This document shows positions 1 to 47,915 of a DNA stretch of 47,915 nt, one piece after another. The DNA is taken from sequence record MW286156.1; one strand, 5' to 3'. The stretch's first letter is position 1; the number at the start of each line of letters is the position of its first letter. The translations under genes and the position numbers were made by a program. This stretch comes from Escherichia phage vB_EcoS-BECP10. The notes under the pieces are model-generated. The model was not told the DNA's origin. It did no database searches and worked only from the letters and a program-made list of their open reading frames with translations.

Positions 1-99
1 ACGAATAGCACTTTTTGCTAAAGACAAATGGGGATGGCAAGGCTATAGTAAACTCATCAACAACGAGGAGATAGATATGAAGGTAAAAATAACAGCACT
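1..99. repeat. Terminal direct repeat: bases 1-99 are identical to 47817-47915 (window wraps around a circular or terminally redundant genome)
   Basis: Exact match of the first 99 nt to the last 99 nt, read directly from the sequence. Confidence 0.9.
4..76 (+). promoter_or_regulatory. Early promoter module 1: TAGCA-N5-TGCTA element (6-20), -10-like TATAGT, leader CTCATCAACAACGAGGAG
   Basis: AATAGCACTTTTTGCTAAAG followed about 22 nt later by TATAGT and a box-2 variant, then RBS GAGGAG and ATG at 77. Confidence 0.6.
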
Positions 100-2961: not shown

Positions 2962-3037
2962 AATAGCACTAATTGCTAAAGCCCTTCGGGGCTTTTCCTG
3001 TATATTCATCTCATCGAAACGAAATGGAGTTACTAAA
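2962..3037 (+). promoter_or_regulatory. Early promoter module 5: IR 2964-2978, hairpin AAGCCCTTCGGGGCTT, TGTATATT, CATCGAAACGAAA
   Basis: AAATAGCACTAATTGCTAAAG, hairpin, TATATT, conserved leader, RBS GGAG. Confidence 0.65.
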
Positions 3038-3505: not shown

Positions 3506-3586
3506 AATAGCACTTTTTGCTAAAACAAAATCGCAAGGATGCGGTATTATCTTTACATCGAAACGAAAAAGCGAAAGGTAAAAAAA
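3506..3586 (+). promoter_or_regulatory. Early promoter module 6: IR 3508-3522, hairpin CGCAAGGATGCG, TATTAT, CATCGAAACGAAA
   Basis: AATAGCACTTTTTGCTAAAAC, hairpin, TATTAT, leader, RBS AAAGG. Confidence 0.65.
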
Positions 3587-7614: not shown

Positions 7615-7691
7615 CTTTGTATCCTCTCGTTTGTTTAGATGGGGTAACTATACCCCATCTTTTGATTTTCGTTTTAGCAATTCGTGCTATT
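7615..7691 (-). promoter_or_regulatory. Promoter module 9 (minus): IR 7675-7689, hairpin overlapping TATAGT, leader variant CATCTAAACAAACGAGAGG
   Basis: Minus-strand reading AAATAGCACGAATTGCTAAAAC then GGGGTATAGTTACCCC and a box-2 variant. Confidence 0.55.
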
Positions 7692-7953
7692 TAGACTTTA
7701 TTTGACTCCACTATATAGCACTCAAGGACAATCTTTTTATCATCAACATTCATCGTGCTGTGATTAAGCCAATCAACAACCGTTCTTAATTCCACTCATT
7801 CATGGTAAATCTCTTTTCCAAGTTCACAATACTGTTGAGATACCAATGGAGATGAAAGGCTTGCAACTAAAATCATCTCTGTAATCATTTTGATTCCTAT
7901 ATCTGTAGCTGACGCATCTCAAAAGCCTCGAAGGGCTTTAACAAAAAGTGATA

Positions 7954-9087
7954 TTATTTGAACATTTCTGGACGGCAGATAAAGCGACCAACCTCACCAA
8001 ACTCTTTATGATAGATGATTACCGCGGCCTGCCTTTGTGAGCGCCATCCACTATTCGCACTATATGCATCTGGTGAACCAATCTGACCATGAACCTCATC
8101 AATACCAAGATTTGTCTCTGTAATCTTCTGTGAATGCCAGTGGCCTGAGTGGGTGTATACATAATCACTTAAACCAAAGTCACGTCGCCAGTCAGTAGCC
8201 ATAACCGAAAGGCGAGTATCAGCTTTACGCATTTGATGCCCGTGAGTGAAACCAAGCATTGTAGAACCAAACTTAGTTACCATCATTGCCGCGGGACTAA
8301 CATCAATACTAACGCGTGGCTCTTCCTCATAAAATGCAGCAAGCGCAGCCCGCAACCAAACCATACCACTTTCATCATGATTACCAGATATAACTTTAAC
8401 CTCTACGTTTTCATGTTTGCTAAGCATGTTTCGAATTGCGCGGCGAACCGCTCGAATGCAAACATAAACAATCTTGGCGTAGCGACTGTCACTGTCCAGG
8501 ATGTGACCACTGGCTGGAGTTTTGGCTTCCAAAGAATCATAATGAAGCAGATCACCTCCTAGCACTAGTACAGCATTCTTTGAATTTGGAGATTTCTGTA
8601 TGGCGTAGTCAAAATAATCGTTCATTACTTTCTCTGCCGTTGCTGTGTCGTAGTTTTCTCCGCACTCATGCTTGTGGGCCATTGCGCCAATGTGAAGGTC
8701 AAATACTGGATACATAGCTAAAGTATCTTCATCAAAATTCAGACCTTCAGATTTAACTGCTTTTTCTTTTGGTAGCTCGCTAGAGAATGCCTCTCGCGCT
8801 TGATTCATCATCTCCTCAAGCTTCTCTGCATCAATAGAGGACTTAACCCATTGCAACTTCACATTGCCATCATTATCAACAAGGCTAGATACACCTTTAA
8901 CCATGTAGCCCTGAGGAATTAGGTTACTCACATCGCGACCGTGACCATCCCCAGCCTTAGCCAACTTGCTGCGACGCAGCTCTACGTTACGAATATTCAT
9001 ACCGTACTTCTCTGCGATTGCCTTGTTAGTCATACCGTTAGCCAGTTCTTGCTTTAACTCTTCGTTGGTGATTTTAGCTATAGCCAT
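7954..9087 (-). CDS. HTH-containing calcineurin-like metallophosphoesterase (377 aa; possible nuclease or phosphatase)
   Basis: Metallophosphoesterase motifs DLHIG, GGDLLHYD, GNHDE, THGH, HSGHWH; N-terminal HTH-like segment MTNKAIAEKYGMNIRNVELRR. Confidence 0.65.
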   Translation of the reverse strand: MAIAKITNEELKQELANGMTNKAIAEKYGMNIRNVELRRSKLAKAGDGHGRDVSNLIPQGYMVKGVSSLVDNDGNVKLQWVKSSIDAEKLEEMMNQAREAFSSELPKEKAVKSEGLNFDEDTLAMYPVFDLHIGAMAHKHECGENYDTATAEKVMNDYFDYAIQKSPNSKNAVLVLGGDLLHYDSLEAKTPASGHILDSDSRYAKIVYVCIRAVRRAIRNMLSKHENVEVKVISGNHDESGMVWLRAALAAFYEEEPRVSIDVSPAAMMVTKFGSTMLGFTHGHQMRKADTRLSVMATDWRRDFGLSDYVYTHSGHWHSQKITETNLGIDEVHGQIGSPDAYSANSGWRSQRQAAVIIYHKEFGEVGRFICRPEMFK

Positions 9088-9170: not shown

Positions 9171-9243
9171 CTGAATCGTCTCTCGTTTCGATGAACACAC
9201 TATACGCCATCCATGGCGATGTGTTTTAACAAAAAGTGCTATT
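9171..9243 (-). promoter_or_regulatory. Promoter module 10 (minus): IR variant 9227-9241, hairpin CGCCATGGATGGCG, TATAGT, TTCATCGAAACGAGAG
   Basis: Minus-strand AAATAGCACTTTTTGTTAAAAC then hairpin, TATAGT and leader box. Confidence 0.6.
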
Positions 9244-9496
9244 TTACTTCTTTTAGCCAGTAATCAAGAAACTCAGTTTCTAGAGCAGAAATTGCTGGTG
9301 AATACTCACTAGGCATCATCATATTGCAACCTGGCGAATAGTACATCAACTCAGCTTTACCAATCTCAATTTGCACCAGTACATCGAGGTAGTCCGGAGG
9401 AATCCACTCAGAGAAAGGAATCTTCCGATAAGGCTTCTCACCAAAAAACACAACCTGATACTTACTCTCATCAAAATCTAGACCAGGTAAATTCAT
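9239..9496 (-). CDS. Hypothetical protein (85 aa)
   Basis: ORF track; TAG stop lies inside the IR of module 10. Confidence 0.45.
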   Translation of the reverse strand: MNLPGLDFDESKYQVVFFGEKPYRKIPFSEWIPPDYLDVLVQIEIGKAELMYYSPGCNMMMPSEYSPAISALETEFLDYWLKEVK

Positions 9497-9777
9497 TTCT
9501 TCGCACCTTTCTTAAATATCTTCTTACCTTCCTCACGATACATTGCGAGGCTAGGCGTTGCTGTAACTCTTACATACTTGCGTGGCCGCTGGTTCATATA
9601 ACTAAACTTCCCATTGAAAACTACAGATATGTCATCAATATCAAAGTATTTACCTATCATCTTGATGTCATCCTGCAATCCCGCCTCTCCACAATGCGCC
9701 CATACAGCGGCGCGTCCTGTTTCAACTATCATAGGCCGTAAGCCATTTTTAAATATTCTCGAGCGCACATCCAGCAA
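9493..9777 (-). CDS. Hypothetical protein (94 aa); 5' end overlaps a 41-aa ORF in another frame (9729..9854)
   Basis: ORF track; the true start or a frameshift is unresolved. Confidence 0.35.
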   Translation of the reverse strand: MLDVRSRIFKNGLRPMIVETGRAAVWAHCGEAGLQDDIKMIGKYFDIDDISVVFNGKFSYMNQRPRKYVRVTATPSLAMYREEGKKIFKKGAKK

Positions 9778-9854
9778 TATTCAGATCCAGTCTTAACTGC
9801 GTCATTTGCGAAAGACTGCGCAATCTCGAACATCTCTTTGTCTATAATTTTCAT

Positions 9855-9929
9855 CTCTTAACCCTCTCATTTGCTGATGTAATTAATATAATCCATCCTT
9901 GTATTTTAGTTTTAACAAAAAGTGCTATT
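9855..9929 (-). promoter_or_regulatory. Promoter module 11 (minus): IR variant 9913-9927 without a clear leader box
   Basis: Minus-strand AAATAGCACTTTTTGTTAAAAC followed by TATATTAAT; no CATCGAAACGA box. Confidence 0.45.
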
Positions 9930-10129
9930 TACTCATAAACAAGAAAACTTACATGCTTACCTTTCGCATCATTACACCCGTAGTACCCATCAAATTCATT
10001 ATGTAACTTCCATGCAAATCCGTCATCGCTAACTATTTCAACCTGGTCATTAATCGGGTCAAGTTTGAATTCATACTCATTGAGCAGGGTGAATGAGCCG
10101 TTCGTCATTACGCAAGTCGCAGTAATCAT
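9929..10129 (-). CDS. Hypothetical protein (66 aa)
   Basis: Internal Met of track ORF 9929..10147 giving ATGA coupling with the upstream gene. Confidence 0.4.
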   Translation of the reverse strand: MITATCVMTNGSFTLLNEYEFKLDPINDQVEIVSDDGFAWKLHNEFDGYYGCNDAKGKHVSFLVYE

Positions 10130-10538: not shown

Positions 10539-10614
10539 TTTGTTTCTCTCTCTTCGTTTCGATGAAGTAACTATATCGCATCCTTGCGAAATCTCTTTAG
10601 CAATTCGTGCTATT
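10539..10614 (-). promoter_or_regulatory. Promoter module 12 (minus): IR 10598-10612, hairpin TCGCAAGGATGCGA, TATAGT, TTCATCGAAACGAAGAG
   Basis: Minus-strand CAAATAGCACGAATTGCTAAAG, 22-nt spacer with hairpin, TATAGT, leader. Confidence 0.65.
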
Positions 10615-10986
10615 TGATAGATAATCTGTAATTGCCAACTTAAACATTTCAAACCCATAACAGATTGCCGCGTAACCTCCTGTTTCTGATACCTTTTCCA
10701 GGAACTCCTTTTGCTCCTTTGAAACCTTGCTATCTGATTTTATTGCTCGCTTAAGCTCTATTGCGGCAAAGCCATTTGGTCCAATCAGTAGAATATCTGA
10801 TACACCCTTAATTACTCCCTCCTGCTTGTCCTTCATTGCTGTGCCGATAGACTTGAGACCTTCATTCTTCACGTGAAAAGCAAATATCTCTGGATGGTTG
10901 TGGCGAACCCAAGCTATTGAATTTATTTGGTGAACAACCTCTTTAGCCTTGTCCGTGCTTGTTTTGTCGTGAAAAACCTTAACCAT
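10597..10986 (-). CDS. VRR-NUC domain nuclease (129 aa)
   Basis: PD-(D/E)XK-type motif DILLIGPNG...AAIELK; sits immediately 3' of the helicase gene. Confidence 0.6.
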   Translation of the reverse strand: MVKVFHDKTSTDKAKEVVHQINSIAWVRHNHPEIFAFHVKNEGLKSIGTAMKDKQEGVIKGVSDILLIGPNGFAAIELKRAIKSDSKVSKEQKEFLEKVSETGGYAAICYGFEMFKLAITDYLSNSTNC

Positions 10987-18419: not shown

Positions 18420-18491
18420 ACTTTTCCTCTCGTTGTCGATGAGGTAACTATACCTCACCGATTTAATGTTGTTTTAGCTATTCGTGCTGTT
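18420..18491 (-). promoter_or_regulatory. Promoter module 14 (minus): IR variant 18475-18489, hairpin over TATAGT, leader CCTCATCGACAACGAGAGG
   Basis: Minus-strand CAGCACGAATAGCTAAAAC then GAGGTATAGTTACCTC and leader box. Confidence 0.55.
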
Positions 18492-19442
18492 TTCGTACTT
18501 TGACATATAGTAAGACGGTACTTGCAACTCCATTGAATCCTCAATCATGTTGTATCCAGGCCATTTGTCATACTTCTTGCATTGCTTGTATGTTGCCAAT
18601 GCCTGCATATACTGGCGGCGGCCTAAAGCAATGTGCGCATCTGATAATGTGTAAAGCATAGGCAGGTATGGCGCCTTTTTCTCCTGAGCTAGCAGTTGTA
18701 CAATAACCTTTCGCTTTTCGTTGAACGCACGAACAAACAGGTCGCGCTGTAAAGCCATTTTAAGCAAGTAGCCATAATTGGCAGCAAGCCTACCAAATCC
18801 TTCAGGTGACGCGTCAGAGGTCGTCTTGTAATCTGTGATATAGACAACATCATCAACCACGTCAACATGGTCCAGCCTGACCTTAACTCCGCACTCATTA
18901 ATATCGCCGAAGATTGATAACTCTCGCTGAGCGGTTTTACTGTTCACTATCGCATTGTATGCAGGAATTCCGCACAGCACCTCTCGCATCGCATGTACTG
19001 TGTCAAAGTCTTTAGCTGATACAATCTCGCGACCGTTCGCTTTAACCTCGCTAGAGCGCTGAATATCCCACCATACGTTAAGTGATTCACCGCTCAGCGA
19101 CAGAATCTCCATTAATTCTGGATAATCCTTACCAGATGTTCCAGCAATACCCATCGACTTCAACCGAGTTGCCAAAGCAGTCTTGCTAGTAATCAGATCC
19201 TCAAACTCTTCTTGCGCTGGCTGGCGATAGTAAGTCGCATCGAATACAGAGTTTTCAAGAATAACCGTGTGGGCTAATGTACCGAACTTTAACGCCTTAT
19301 TGCTATCATCATGCTCTGCAAACTTATAAGCAGCGGGGCAGGTTGAGAAGATGTGAGCCAGACCAGAGCCAGACACATGGTCTGACTCCTTGTGGTAGGC
19401 CTCGTTGGTTAACTCGTCGCTAGTGTAAACCTTGAAGCTCAT
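18474..19442 (-). CDS. PD-(D/E)XK family exonuclease (recombination exonuclease, 322 aa)
   Basis: Motif DHVDVVDDVVYITDYKTT consistent with a D...(D/E)xK nuclease core; adjacent to annealing protein and SSB. Confidence 0.55.
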   Translation of the reverse strand: MSFKVYTSDELTNEAYHKESDHVSGSGLAHIFSTCPAAYKFAEHDDSNKALKFGTLAHTVILENSVFDATYYRQPAQEEFEDLITSKTALATRLKSMGIAGTSGKDYPELMEILSLSGESLNVWWDIQRSSEVKANGREIVSAKDFDTVHAMREVLCGIPAYNAIVNSKTAQRELSIFGDINECGVKVRLDHVDVVDDVVYITDYKTTSDASPEGFGRLAANYGYLLKMALQRDLFVRAFNEKRKVIVQLLAQEKKAPYLPMLYTLSDAHIALGRRQYMQALATYKQCKKYDKWPGYNMIEDSMELQVPSYYMSKYENSTNS

Positions 19443-20649: not shown

Positions 20650-21003
20650 GTATATCTGTGTAAAACTCACCTAAATACGGTTCGCTACCTTCTAAACCGC
20701 ACCAGCACTGGCTGTAACTCTTGTAACCAATGTATCCACCACAATTGCACCCTATCTATATCTATATGCATCCCCTCCTTAACAGGAAGTCAAACATAGT
20801 ATTTTAGAAAAACACACCAACATAACCATAGAGAGTAGTTACAATATATACAAACAAATATAGTAATAATAATAATTACTCTAAACCCTTATTATATAAG
20901 GATTCTATAGTGTAACTAATGCGTATCTTCGCGTAAAAAGCGTATACAATTTTCCGCGTATGAGATTGTATACATCGAGTTACATCGGTTACGCGTATAT
21001 CAA
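20650..21003. promoter_or_regulatory. AT-rich ORF-free control region A at the minus/plus divergence point; partly homologous to region B
   Basis: No ORF of 60 aa or more; shares TAATAATAATAAT, TTATATAAGGAT, TAGTGTA, GCGTATA.AATT, ACATCGG, ACGCGTATAT blocks with 47490-47640. Confidence 0.5.
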
Positions 21004-21088
21004 ATAGCACGATTTGCTAAAGACTCCAGCAGAAGCCTTTGCTATAGTTACTCCATCGAAACGAAACATACTTACTAAGGAATACAAA
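21004..21088 (+). promoter_or_regulatory. Promoter module 8: IR 21006-21020, TGCTATAGT, CATCGAAACGAAA
   Basis: AAATAGCACGATTTGCTAAAG, about 23-nt spacer, extended -10-like TGCTATAGT, leader, RBS AAGGA. Confidence 0.65.
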
Positions 21089-28120: not shown

Positions 28121-28184
28121 CTCTTTTTTAAGTTTTTTAATTGTAAACCTTCCTTGGTATTTCTGTTTAGCAATTAGTGCTATT
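28121..28184 (-). promoter_or_regulatory. Promoter module 16 (minus) inside the tail operon: IR 28168-28182
   Basis: Minus-strand AAATAGCACTAATTGCTAAAC; no CATCGAAACGA leader. Confidence 0.5.
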
Positions 28185-28534
28185 TACTGCATAGATGTGA
28201 AAACCTCAGTAAATTGCATTGATACGGTCTGAACTTCCTTGGTATTTGGCGTGACGCTAATGCTATCTTGAGCTACAACAAACAGCTTAAGCTCACCCTG
28301 CGGAGTTGTCCATGCGAAAGGTGTAATGATGTGCGCGAAGCAGAATTCAAGAACATCTCTCCAGTCATTGTTGGTGTATGTCATGTTGTACGTTCGCTTG
28401 TTGGCCCTGTATCCTCCAGTACCTCTTTGCTCGTAGCCATTACCAAAGCTGACAACCCTAACGTTATTCGCGTTAGTAAAGTTTGCTGATCCACCTTGAA
28501 TTTGGGTACACCATGTAAAAGTATCTAATGCCAT
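28184..28534 (-). CDS. Minor tail protein (lambda M-like, 116 aa)
   Basis: Size and position between tape measure and L. Confidence 0.55.
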   Translation of the reverse strand: MALDTFTWCTQIQGGSANFTNANNVRVVSFGNGYEQRGTGGYRANKRTYNMTYTNNDWRDVLEFCFAHIITPFAWTTPQGELKLFVVAQDSISVTPNTKEVQTVSMQFTEVFTSMQ

Positions 28535-43550: not shown

Positions 43551-43626
43551 TGGTGTTCCGCACTGGACTCGAACCAGTAACTGAGACTTAGGAGGTCTCT
43601 GCGTTATCCTGTTACGCCAGCAGAAC
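43551..43626 (-). tRNA. tRNA-Arg (anticodon CCU, reads AGG), 76 nt with encoded CCA
   Basis: Manual cloverleaf: acceptor GTTCTGC/GCGGAAC, D-stem GCGT/ACGC with GG in loop, anticodon stem GAGAC/GTCTC with loop CTCCTAA, T-arm ACTGG-TTCGAGT-CCAGT, discriminator A, CCA. Confidence 0.8.
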
Positions 43627-44898: not shown

Positions 44899-44975
44899 TT
44901 AATCTTTCCTCGTCTCATTTCGATAAAGTAATGGTAACGCATCCTTGCGATGGATGTTTAGCAATTTGTGCTATT
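44899..44975 (-). promoter_or_regulatory. Promoter module 17 (minus): IR 44959-44973, hairpin CGCAAGGATGCG, leader variant TTTATCGAAATGAGACGAGG
   Basis: Minus-strand CAAATAGCACAAATTGCTAAAC then hairpin and box-2 variant. Confidence 0.6.
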
Positions 44976-45270
44976 TGTTGCTCCAGCTATCAAGATAATG
45001 TTTAGGTCCGTTGCGATACTTGTCTATAAGTTCCTGGACATGTGCACCCCTTTGATCATGGAATTCTATGGCCTTCTGAAGCGATACAATGGCCTCATTG
45101 ATGTCGGTAGGGTAATCCTTATGTCGTGTTCGAATGCCGCTGCACAGTACCTTTTTGATGGCATGCTGTAGTGCCGGGTCCGTTACGCCAAATGCTGCGA
45201 TGACGCGATATACATCAACCGTAGTCTTGGTGCCGTCCAGGCCAATAATCTCTTTTTCGTACTTACTCAT
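44971..45270 (-). CDS. Hypothetical early protein (99 aa)
   Basis: ORF track; RBS GAGGATTGAGAT. Confidence 0.5.
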   Translation of the reverse strand: MSKYEKEIIGLDGTKTTVDVYRVIAAFGVTDPALQHAIKKVLCSGIRTRHKDYPTDINEAIVSLQKAIEFHDQRGAHVQELIDKYRNGPKHYLDSWSNK

Positions 45271-47816: not shown

Positions 47817-47915
47817 ACGAATAGCACTTTTTGCTAAAGACAAATGGGGATGGCAAGGCTATAGTAAACTCATCAACAACGAGGAGATAGATATGAAGGT
47901 AAAAATAACAGCACT
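47817..47915. repeat. Second copy of the terminal direct repeat (duplicates IR module 1 and the first codons of the 77..271 gene)
   Basis: Identical to 1-99. Confidence 0.9.

What the first reader, a model, noticed from the sequence alone, without database searches (positions are those of the whole stretch)
9493..9854. Two overlapping minus-strand ORFs in different frames downstream of IR module 11
A 41-codon ORF starting at about 9854 (first ATG after module 11) overlaps by about 48 nt the 5' part of the 94-aa track ORF 9493-9777 in another frame. This could reflect a frameshift mutation or sequencing error splitting one gene, a programmed frameshift, or simply an incorrect start call.
Basis: seen in the sequence. 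Interest (0 to 1): 0.2.

Follow-up and report, generated by a model that had tools for sequence, protein, structure and literature searches.

The report
Two coupled phage genes, miscalled start
The apparent 49-base overlap comes from starting the downstream ORF at the farthest possible TTG; these are two separate, conserved small genes of a T1-like coliphage whose stop and start codons share the four bases ATGA, which is ordinary.

Summary
The window is a Rogunavirus (T1-like, Drexlerviridae) genome, 99.7-99.8% identical to phage Rogue1 across this region. Both ORFs exist as described. The 94-aa ORF (9493-9777) is only the mechanical longest ORF, counted from TTG 9777. The real gene starts at ATG 9732 (79 aa). 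That ATG overlaps the TGA stop of the 41-aa gene (9729-9854) as ATGA. The same ATGA junction links the 79-aa gene to the next one (9239-9496).

Evidence:
- All 18 distinct orthologous haplotypes keep the 41-codon gene and a 4-nt NTGA junction.
- 9 of 18 carry a stop inside the 15-codon TTG extension.
- Substitutions in the overlap are mostly synonymous in the 41-aa frame (pN/pS 0.28) and look unconstrained in the extension frame (1.01).
- Database homologues are 41 aa, or 74-98 aa (25 of 27 are 79-82 aa), and none is fused.
- Family profiles begin at Met-9732.
- Rogue1, AHS24, RTP, Sd1 and others annotate exactly these boundaries. Only the old JK06 record uses the long call.

A split gene or sequencing error is refuted. 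A formal -1 slippery heptamer (T_TTA_AAA, 9747-9753) is not conserved and has no stimulator. The 79-aa gene has no Shine-Dalgarno, so it is probably translated by termination-reinitiation coupling. This is already known and of low interest.

The parts
9876..9933 (-). It is one copy of a ~60-nt intergenic module (AAATAGCAC-N5-TTGyTAAA ... TATAtT ... CATC) repeated at least 14 times in the genome. It is probably the promoter region for the cassette.
   Evidence: Repeat families D3/D4/D10 and inverted pair I4. The homologous stretch in phage SU57 is annotated as a BPROM sigma-70 promoter. Promoter function was not tested here.
9862..9866 (-). Shine-Dalgarno GAGGG of the 41-aa gene, 7 nt upstream of ATG 9854.
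   Evidence: Sequence. Duplex with the 16S 3' end is -6.3 kcal/mol, equal to the median of annotated Rogue1 starts (-6.4).
9729..9854 (-). The 41-aa gene, homologue of Rogue1 gp54 / RTP rtp58, family phrog_2180. It is predicted to fold as a two-helix hairpin.
   Evidence: ORF. 100% identical to the Rogue1, AHS24 and JK06 proteins. All 22 database clusters are exactly 41 aa. pN/pS is 0.34. phrog_2180 E = 1.5e-21. AlphaFold2 pLDDT 97, helices at 6-22 and 25-38.
9775..9777 (-). TTG that opens the mechanical 94-aa ORF. It is not the real start.
   Evidence: No SD (-3.1 kcal/mol, the same as the random median of -3.0). The codon at -45 is not TTG in 6 of 18 orthologous haplotypes, and in-frame stops downstream of it in 9 of 18 leave it usable in only 7. 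The extension frame has pN/pS 1.01.
9747..9753 (-). T_TTA_AAA in the 41-aa gene's frame (Leu35-Lys36). It is formally a -1 slippery heptamer leading into the 79-aa gene's frame. I judge it incidental.
   Evidence: Present only in the close Rogunavirus clade, plus T_TTA_AAG in Sf12. The other 13 of 18 haplotypes have CCTGAAA, CCTAAAA, TCTAAAA, CTTAAAA, TATAAAA, CATAAAA or CCTGAGA. There is no structure within 27 nt downstream, and the fold z-score is 0.07.
9729..9732 (-). ATGA junction. ATG (9732-9730) starts the 79-aa gene and TGA (9731-9729) stops the 41-aa gene.
   Evidence: Sequence. ATGA is kept in 17 of 18 haplotypes and is GTGA in the other. Hafnia phage Pocis76 also has it.
9493..9732 (-). 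The 79-aa gene, homologue of Rogue1 gp55 / RTP rtp59, family phrog_2817. It is conserved across Drexlerviridae. Its function is unknown.
   Evidence: tblastn finds homologues in 849 phage records, and almost all listed alignments start at query residue 1. phrog_2817 profile position 1 aligns to residue 1. Database homologues are 74-98 aa and share the N-terminus MI(V/L)xTGR. In 19 of 31 representatives from the exhaustive search, profile position 1 aligns to protein residue 1.
9493..9496 (-). Second ATGA junction, between the 79-aa gene and the next gene.
   Evidence: Sequence. Rogue1 annotates gp55 and gp56 with the same 4-nt overlap.
9239..9496 (-). The 85-aa gene, homologue of Rogue1 gp56 / RTP rtp60, family phrog_4596. 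It is the last gene of the three-gene cassette.
   Evidence: ORF. phrog_4596 E = 1.9e-43. Moderate SD AAAGGTG at -4.7 kcal/mol.
9183..9245 (-). The next copy of the intergenic module. It closes the cassette and precedes the exonuclease gene (7954-9087).
   Evidence: Repeat families D2/D3/D4. A terminator-like hairpin lies at 9153-9133.

Best explanation
These are two independent small genes of a T1-like phage (genus Rogunavirus), arranged as a translationally coupled pair.

The 41-aa gene (9854..9729) has its own ribosome-binding site. The downstream gene really starts at ATG 9732 (79 aa), not at TTG 9777. Its ATG and the upstream TGA share the four bases ATGA. The 79-aa gene has no Shine-Dalgarno sequence, so it is most likely translated by ribosomes that terminate on the 41-aa gene and re-initiate on the spot. 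That would tie its output to translation of the upstream gene. A second ATGA passes ribosomes on to the 85-aa gene. The three genes form one cassette between two copies of the genome's repeated intergenic module.

The 49-nt overlap comes from calling the ORF from the farthest upstream TTG.

Shown here: the gene boundaries, their conservation, and the lack of coding constraint in the extension. Inferred: the re-initiation mechanism and the shared transcript. The biochemical functions of the two proteins remain unknown. The 41-aa product is a confidently predicted helical hairpin.
For: - Identity: the region is 99.7-99.8% identical to Rogue1.
- Annotation: ten independently annotated relatives place a 126-nt gene and a 240-249-nt gene with a 4-nt overlap at the homologous coordinates.
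- Junction: of 18 distinct haplotypes, 17 have ATGA and 1 has GTGA.
- Extension: 9 of 18 have a stop inside the 15-codon extension. Whether that stop is present depends on a synonymous GCT/GCA change in the 41-aa frame.
- Selection: across the 15 overlapping codons, pN/pS is 0.28 in the 41-aa frame and 1.01 in the extension frame. The 79-aa gene proper has 0.16.
- Lengths: homologues of the 41-aa protein are all 41 aa. Homologues of the 79-aa protein are 74-98 aa with a conserved N-terminus at Met-9732.
- Families: each protein matches its own PHROG family end to end, phrog_2180 and phrog_2817.
- Independence: the 79-aa family also occurs behind an unrelated upstream gene (phrog_9631) in Klebsiella Webervirus.
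- Ribosome binding: SD duplex energies are -6.3 for the 41-aa gene, -1.7 for ATG 9732 and -3.1 for TTG 9777, against a random median of -3.0 and an annotated-start median of -6.4 kcal/mol.
- Genome style: 4-nt and 1-nt overlaps are routine in this genome, 12 of 72 adjacent pairs.
Against: - There is no direct expression data. The start of the 79-aa protein and its dependence on upstream translation are inferred from sequence only.
- In the Rogunavirus clade itself, the extension is open and TTG/GTG codons are present. A minor longer isoform cannot be excluded from sequence.
- The JK06 record annotates a 93-aa version and omits the 41-aa gene.
- A formal slippery heptamer lies in the overlap. 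About 1 in 464 codon positions carries such a heptamer in Rogue1.
Confidence: 0.93

Rival explanations
1. The downstream gene really initiates at TTG 9777 (or GTG 9768) and makes a 94-aa (or 91-aa) protein, so it genuinely overlaps the 41-aa gene by 49 nt.
For: The frame is open from 9777 in the window and its closest relatives. The JK06 record annotates a 93-aa JK_65 covering this extension. SU57 even has an in-frame ATG at -48, giving a 98-aa ORF.
Against: - The extension is cut by a stop in 9 of 18 haplotypes, and the codon at -45 is not TTG in 6 of 18.
- Its pN/pS is 1.01.
- There is no SD (-3.1 kcal/mol, the random level).
- phrog_2817 and the database homologues start at Met-9732.
Confidence: 0.03
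2. Programmed -1 ribosomal frameshifting at T_TTA_AAA (9753..9747) fuses the first 36 residues of the 41-aa protein to the whole 79-aa protein, giving a third product.
For: - The heptamer is in the correct frame and the -1 frame is open through to ATG 9732.
- Sf12, whose 41-aa protein is only 39% identical, has T_TTA_AAG at the same codons. PMC4066793 lists that motif among the efficient ones in E. coli.
- Such in-frame heptamers are fairly rare, 30 in 13,914 codon positions.
Against: - 13 of 18 haplotypes have no slippery heptamer, although Leu/Ile-Lys is conserved. Codon choice drifts freely among TTA, CTG, CTA and ATA.
- No hairpin or pseudoknot lies within 27 nt downstream, and the fold z-score is 0.07.
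- No SD-like stimulator sits at the right distance upstream.
- U_UUA_AAA is not among the efficient E. coli motifs, and motifs without stimulators are only 2-10 times a ~0.05% background (PMC4066793).
- No fused homologue of this type was found.
Confidence: 0.03
3. One ancestral gene was split by a frameshift mutation or a sequencing or assembly error in this genome.
For: Two ORFs sit in different frames on one strand. A real example of such damage lies next door in another record: JK06 has a 1-nt insertion that breaks the 85-aa gene. A T1-like 132-aa fusion (P0158) can be explained by loss of one A from an A6 run in T1's 23-nt overlap.
Against: - The window has no indel relative to Rogue1 or JK06 between 9400 and 9900, apart from JK06's own insertion elsewhere.
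- All 24 related loci share the same frame structure without gaps.
- The two proteins belong to different PHROG families, each matched end to end.
- The 79-aa family occurs with a different upstream partner in Webervirus.
- There is no homopolymer at the junction.
Confidence: 0.01

Closest known systems
Rogue1 gp54/gp55/gp56 (NC_019718: 37505-37630, 37627-37866, 37863-38120) and RTP rtp58/rtp59/rtp60
   Same: The DNA is 99.8% identical to Rogue1. The gene lengths (41, 79 and 85 aa) and the two 4-nt overlaps are the same. The 41-aa protein is 100% identical.
   Different: The 79-aa protein has one private substitution: Thr57 (ACA, first base at 9564) where Rogue1, JK06 and the database homologues have Pro. 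RTP-type relatives carry a different C-terminal third of the protein, 80-82 aa in total.
Translationally coupled overlapping genes with an ATGA stop/start (for example E. coli trpB-trpA, and many phage operons; from general knowledge)
   Same: The start codon of the downstream gene overlaps the stop codon of the upstream gene by 4 nt. The downstream gene has no Shine-Dalgarno. The junction is conserved.
   Different: Coupling was not tested experimentally here. The genes are very small (41 and 79 codons) and their function is unknown.
Programmed -1 frameshift sites of the X_XXY_YYZ type (dnaX, IS3/IS911, phage tail-chaperone G/GT)
   Same: An in-frame T_TTA_AAA heptamer lies in a region where the -1 frame is open into the next gene.
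   Different: The heptamer is not conserved, no downstream or upstream stimulator is present, the motif is a weak one for E. coli, and no fusion homologue was found.
Lambda Kil (PF06301; 47-aa FtsZ-directed division inhibitor)
   Same: It is a similarly tiny, helical, early-region phage peptide. There is a weak hmmscan match to phrog_2055, which is annotated as Kil (E = 8.6e-5). Lambda Kil itself also matches that family only weakly (E = 2e-6).
   Different: There is no Pfam PF06301 match at E <= 1. Profile-profile probability is 0.6%. The structural match to the Serratia phage Eta 'Kil protein' is non-significant (E = 3.9). No functional data exist.

Membership tests
Translationally coupled overlapping gene pair (ATGA type) | The stop codon of the upstream gene overlaps the start codon of the downstream gene on the same strand. 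| tested here: met
   ATGA at 9732..9729, and again at 9496..9493.
Translationally coupled overlapping gene pair (ATGA type) | The junction is conserved in orthologs. | tested here: met
   17 of 18 haplotypes have ATGA and 1 has GTGA. Pocis76 has ATGA.
Translationally coupled overlapping gene pair (ATGA type) | The downstream gene has a weak or absent ribosome-binding site of its own. | tested here: met
   The anti-SD duplex is -1.7 kcal/mol, against -6.4 for the median annotated start and -3.0 for random positions.
Translationally coupled overlapping gene pair (ATGA type) | Downstream expression depends on upstream translation. | not testable with these tools
   This needs reporter fusions with the upstream start or stop mutated.
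Programmed -1 ribosomal frameshift site | An X_XXY_YYZ slippery heptamer in the zero frame within the overlap. | tested here: met
   T_TTA_AAA at 9753..9747 in the 41-aa gene's frame.
Programmed -1 ribosomal frameshift site | The slippery site is conserved across orthologs, with suppressed synonymous change. | tested here: not met
   13 of 18 haplotypes have no slippery heptamer. Synonymous change in the overlap is as high as elsewhere (pS 0.51).
Programmed -1 ribosomal frameshift site | A stimulatory element: a hairpin or pseudoknot 5-9 nt downstream, or an SD-like sequence ~10 nt upstream. | tested here: not met
   The only hairpin starts 27 nt downstream. MFE is -21.3 against a shuffle mean of -21.5, z = 0.07.
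Split gene / pseudogene caused by an indel | Orthologs carry one continuous ORF, or an indel is visible in alignment. | tested here: not met
   The alignment with Rogue1 and JK06 is gap-free here. There are no fused homologues. All loci are collinear.
phrog_2180 (41-aa protein) and phrog_2817 (79-aa protein) | A significant end-to-end match to the family HMM. | tested here: met
   E = 1.5e-21 over residues 1-41, and E = 6.3e-35 over residues 1-75 aligned to profile positions 1-83 of 84.
Lambda Kil (Pfam PF06301) | A match to the family HMM or profile. | tested here: not met
   No Pfam hit at E <= 1. hhalign probability is 0.6%. The only signal is a weak phrog_2055 hit.
HEPN / NFACT-R_1 / DUF771 (names used in the UDF157lw record) | A match to the corresponding Pfam models. 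| tested here: not met
   None of the three proteins has a Pfam-A hit at E <= 1, and there is no meaningful NCBIfam hit.

The most novel reading that the evidence does not exclude
In the Rogunavirus clade (T_TTA_AAA) and in Sf12 (T_TTA_AAG), a low level of -1 frameshifting at Leu35-Lys36 of the 41-aa gene could produce a third product of about 120 aa, fusing the helical hairpin to the 79-aa protein. That would be a lineage-specific recoding event in a tiny early-gene cassette.
Probability: 0.03. Interest if true: 0.4.

Novelty: already known. Interest (0 to 1): 0.05.

Why it matters
This matters only for annotation. The 94-aa ORF call, and the similar 93-aa JK_65 in the 2005 JK06 record, should be replaced by a 41-aa gene plus a 79-aa gene joined by ATGA, as in Rogue1 and RTP. 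It shows how a longest-ORF track creates false overlaps at coupled gene junctions. It also shows how a synonymous wobble change in one frame (GCT/GCA) can switch a stop on or off in the other. No new biology follows. Both proteins still have no known function, even though the 79-aa family is present in at least 849 Drexlerviridae records.

Tried and rejected
- **Kil lead.** The 41-aa protein weakly hits phrog_2055, annotated as Kil. I followed it with Pfam (no PF06301 hit), a lambda Kil family alignment compared by hhalign (probability 0.6%) and Foldseek against BFVD (Serratia phage Eta Kil at E = 3.9). It is not supported.\n- **Structure of the 79-aa protein.** AlphaFold2 with 28 sequences gave pLDDT 51.5. 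That is too poor for a fold search, so none was run.\n- **Solved structures.** A PDB sequence-profile search for the 79-aa family gave nothing meaningful; the best hit had E = 0.25.\n- **Family libraries.** Pfam and NCBIfam found nothing for any of the three proteins. The HEPN, NFACT-R_1 and DUF771 names in the UDF157lw record could not be reproduced.\n- **Rfam.** A scan of the whole window found only a tRNA at 43554-43626.\n- **Literature.** A search for rtp58/59/60 and the PHROG ids found only an annotation table.\n- **Exhaustive profile search with the 79-aa family.** It found 31 representatives. Most were 42-89 aa, the shortest apparently fragments. A few longer proteins were chimeras or repeat-protein noise (P0151, P0169, P0178).\n- **Promoter and terminator scan.** It found no canonical sigma-70 promoter in 9855-9928.

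Full report
**What is in the sequence.** On the minus strand, the ORF listing gives a 41-aa ATG ORF at 9729..9854 and a 94-aa TTG ORF at 9493..9777 in another frame. They share 49 nt, so the literal observation holds. The read-out shows an in-frame ATG at 9732 inside the 94-aa ORF. The TGA stop of the 41-aa ORF (9731..9729) lies inside the tetranucleotide ATGA (9732..9729). The same arrangement recurs at 9496..9493, between this gene and the next (85 aa, 9239..9496). One detail of the finding is wrong. The first ATG after the repeat module is at 9870, which opens a 22-aa out-of-frame ORF with no SD and is not conserved in SU57.

**Where the window comes from.** The region is 99.7-99.8% identical to Enterobacteria phage vB_EcoS_Rogue1 (Drexlerviridae, Rogunavirus), and 97-99.5% identical to AHS24, AHP24, AKS96, UDF157lw, C119, phiKP26, e4/1c and JK06. 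Rogue1 annotates gp54 (126 nt), gp55 (240 nt) and gp56 (258 nt) with two 4-nt overlaps. These map exactly to 9854..9729, 9732..9493 and 9496..9239. AHS24, UDF157lw, RTP (rtp58/59/60), Sd1, RobRod40, phiA2-1, TR2, ACG-M12 and 12210I use the same boundaries. Only the 2005 JK06 record calls a 93-aa JK_65 and omits the 41-aa gene. SU57 omits the downstream gene altogether, although its ORF is intact.

**Ortholog test of the boundaries.** I collected 24 loci that carry a 41-aa homologue, giving 18 distinct haplotypes whose 41-aa proteins are 39-100% identical to the window's.
- All keep a 41-codon gene.
- 17 have ATGA at the junction and one has GTGA.
- Nine of 18 have a stop codon inside the 15-codon TTG extension. 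In six the codon at -45 is not TTG, and counting the stops, the TTG remains usable in only seven.
- The stop is switched on or off by a change that is synonymous in the 41-aa frame (Ala GCT versus GCA).
- Over the 15 overlapping codons, pN/pS is 0.28 in the 41-aa frame and 1.01 in the extension frame. The whole 41-aa gene gives 0.34, and the first 56 codons of the 79-aa gene give 0.16.

The overlap region therefore codes only for the C-terminus of the 41-aa protein.

**Protein-level evidence.**
- The 41-aa protein matches phrog_2180 over residues 1-41. The 79-aa protein matches phrog_2817, with profile position 1 aligned to Met-9732.
- In the 5.8-billion-protein collection, all 22 clusters related to the 41-aa protein are exactly 41 aa.
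- The 27 clusters related to the 79-aa protein are 74-98 aa, and 25 of them are 79-82 aa. They share the N-terminus M-I-(V/L)-x-T-G-R.
- In the exhaustive profile search, 19 of 31 representatives align profile position 1 to their residue 1.
- tblastn finds the 79-aa family in 849 phage records across Drexlerviridae and the 41-aa protein in 114.
- T1 and Hafnia phage Pocis76 carry longer phrog_2180 members upstream (69 and 59 aa). Klebsiella Webervirus has an unrelated 78-aa gene (phrog_9631) in that slot. In every case the upstream gene still abuts or overlaps the start of the conserved downstream gene.

No fused homologue of the Rogunavirus type exists. The one 132-aa fusion found (P0158, T1-like) is explained by loss of one A from the A6 run in T1's 23-nt overlap. 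It is probably an assembly error or a mutant.

**How it most likely works.** The 41-aa gene has a normal SD (GAGGG, 7-nt spacing, -6.3 kcal/mol). ATG 9732 has essentially none (-1.7 kcal/mol). That is weaker than the median of random positions (-3.0), and fewer than 10% of annotated Rogue1 starts are weaker than -3.9. TTG 9777 and GTG 9768 are at the random level, -3.1. From established knowledge of ATGA junctions, the best-supported mechanism is termination-reinitiation coupling: ribosomes finishing the 41-aa gene restart on the overlapping ATG. The third gene has a moderate SD (-4.7) as well as its ATGA. The three genes lie exactly between two copies of the genome's repeated ~60-nt intergenic module (9933..9876 and 9245..9183). 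The homologous module is annotated as a promoter in SU57. A single transcript for the cassette is therefore plausible, but I infer it rather than show it. Overlaps of 4 nt and 1 nt are routine in this genome, 12 of 72 adjacent pairs in Rogue1.

**Rivals.**
- *Real TTG start.* Contradicted by the stops, the unconstrained substitution pattern, the missing SD and the family N-termini listed above.
- *Programmed -1 frameshift.* The sequence does contain T_TTA_AAA (9753..9747) in the 41-aa frame, and the -1 frame is open into the 79-aa gene. Such in-frame heptamers are fairly rare, 30 per 13,914 codon positions, and Sf12 has T_TTA_AAG at the same codons. However, 13 of 18 haplotypes have non-slippery synonymous or Ile variants. 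No structure follows within 27 nt, and the fold z-score is 0.07. In E. coli, heptamers without stimulators give only 2-10 times a ~0.05% background, and U_UUA_AAA is not among the efficient motifs (PMC4066793). I put this at about 3%.
- *Split gene or sequencing error.* Refuted by the gap-free alignment with Rogue1 and JK06 and by the ortholog structure. For contrast, JK06 shows what a real 1-nt error looks like, in the neighbouring 85-aa gene.

**What the proteins are.** AlphaFold2 predicts the 41-aa protein as a two-helix hairpin with very high confidence (pLDDT 97; helices at 6-22 and 25-38). The 79-aa protein could not be modelled (pLDDT 51.5). Pfam, NCBIfam and PDB sequence searches find nothing, so the HEPN, NFACT-R_1 and DUF771 labels in UDF157lw are unsupported. 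A weak hit of the 41-aa protein to a Kil-annotated PHROG (E = 8.6e-5) did not survive three further tests: Pfam PF06301, hhalign against the lambda Kil family (probability 0.6%) and a structure search. Function remains unknown. The genes sit in the replication/recombination region, between the helicase and VRR-NUC genes and the SbcD-like exonuclease.

**Is it more than chance?** No. In the Rogue1 annotation, 27% of genes have a mechanical ORF longer than the annotated gene, and 9.5% exceed it by 15 codons or more.

**Verdict.** This is an ordinary, already-annotated pair of translationally coupled small phage genes. The 49-nt overlap results from the longest-ORF start call. Interest is low.

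Noticed in passing
window 1-99 and 47817-47915: The two ends of the window are 100% identical over 99 nt. The window is therefore a complete genome of about 47.8 kb, with either an assembly overlap or terminal redundancy (family D7).
   Followed up: no
window 7631-7693, 9183-9245, 9876-9933, 10554-10616, 18431-18493, 28124-28186, 44915-44977 (minus sense); 4-26, 839-901, 1801-1823, 1999-2064, 2962-3024, 3506-3568, 21003-21068 (plus sense): A ~60-nt intergenic module is repeated at least 14 times. It reads AAATAGCAC-N5-TTGCTAAAG, then a variable GC-rich hairpin with compensatory changes (for example GCCCTTCGGGGC or CGCAAGGATGCG), then TATAGT/TATATT, then CATCGAAACGAAA. The gap from TTGCTA to the TATA box is about 22 nt, not the canonical 17. 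A BPROM promoter is annotated over the SU57 homologue.
   Followed up: partly
L046 (JK06 NC_007291) locus 401-902, aligned to window 9400-9900: JK06 has a 1-nt insertion (TTTAC-T-CTGG) just after the start of the 85-aa gene. The insertion breaks that gene, so the record has no CDS there. JK06 also annotates a 93-aa JK_65 starting at a CTG codon and omits the 41-aa gene. These are probably sequence and annotation errors in the 2005 record.
   Followed up: yes
L005 (phage T1 MN153797) 511-720 and 698-970; protein P0158: In T1 the phrog_2180 gene is 69 aa and overlaps the conserved downstream gene by 23 nt, across an A6 run (GATAAAAAAG). A 132-aa database protein (P0158) is exactly the fusion expected if one A is lost from that run. 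It could be a homopolymer error, a mutant, or slippage.
   Followed up: partly
window 9564 (codon 57 of the 79-aa gene): The window has ACA (Thr) where Rogue1, JK06 and the database homologues of this C-terminal type have CCA (Pro), giving RVTATPS instead of RVPATPS. It is the only difference from Rogue1 across 9400-9900.
   Followed up: no
alignment A1 (79-aa family), residues ~57-79: The 79-aa family has two unrelated C-terminal thirds joined to the same conserved N-terminal 56 residues. The Rogunavirus type is PATPSLAMYREEGKKIFKKGAKK and the RTP/Braunvirinae type is KPGVTINTNEFLKEQGFKFKITKG. This suggests a mosaic recombination point inside the gene.
   Followed up: no
L002 (UDF157lw OQ243221) locus 1797-2412: The public product names 'HEPN domain-containing', 'NFACT-R_1 domain-containing' and 'DUF771 domain-containing' for the three small proteins could not be reproduced with Pfam-A at E <= 1.
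   Followed up: yes
window 9854-9729; model m6be4021260b1: The 41-aa protein is predicted as a very confident alpha-helical hairpin (pLDDT 97), with an invariant Trp28 and a near-invariant Cys27/Cys30 pair. It weakly matches the Kil-annotated phrog_2055. The stricter tests for a relationship to Kil failed.
   Followed up: yes
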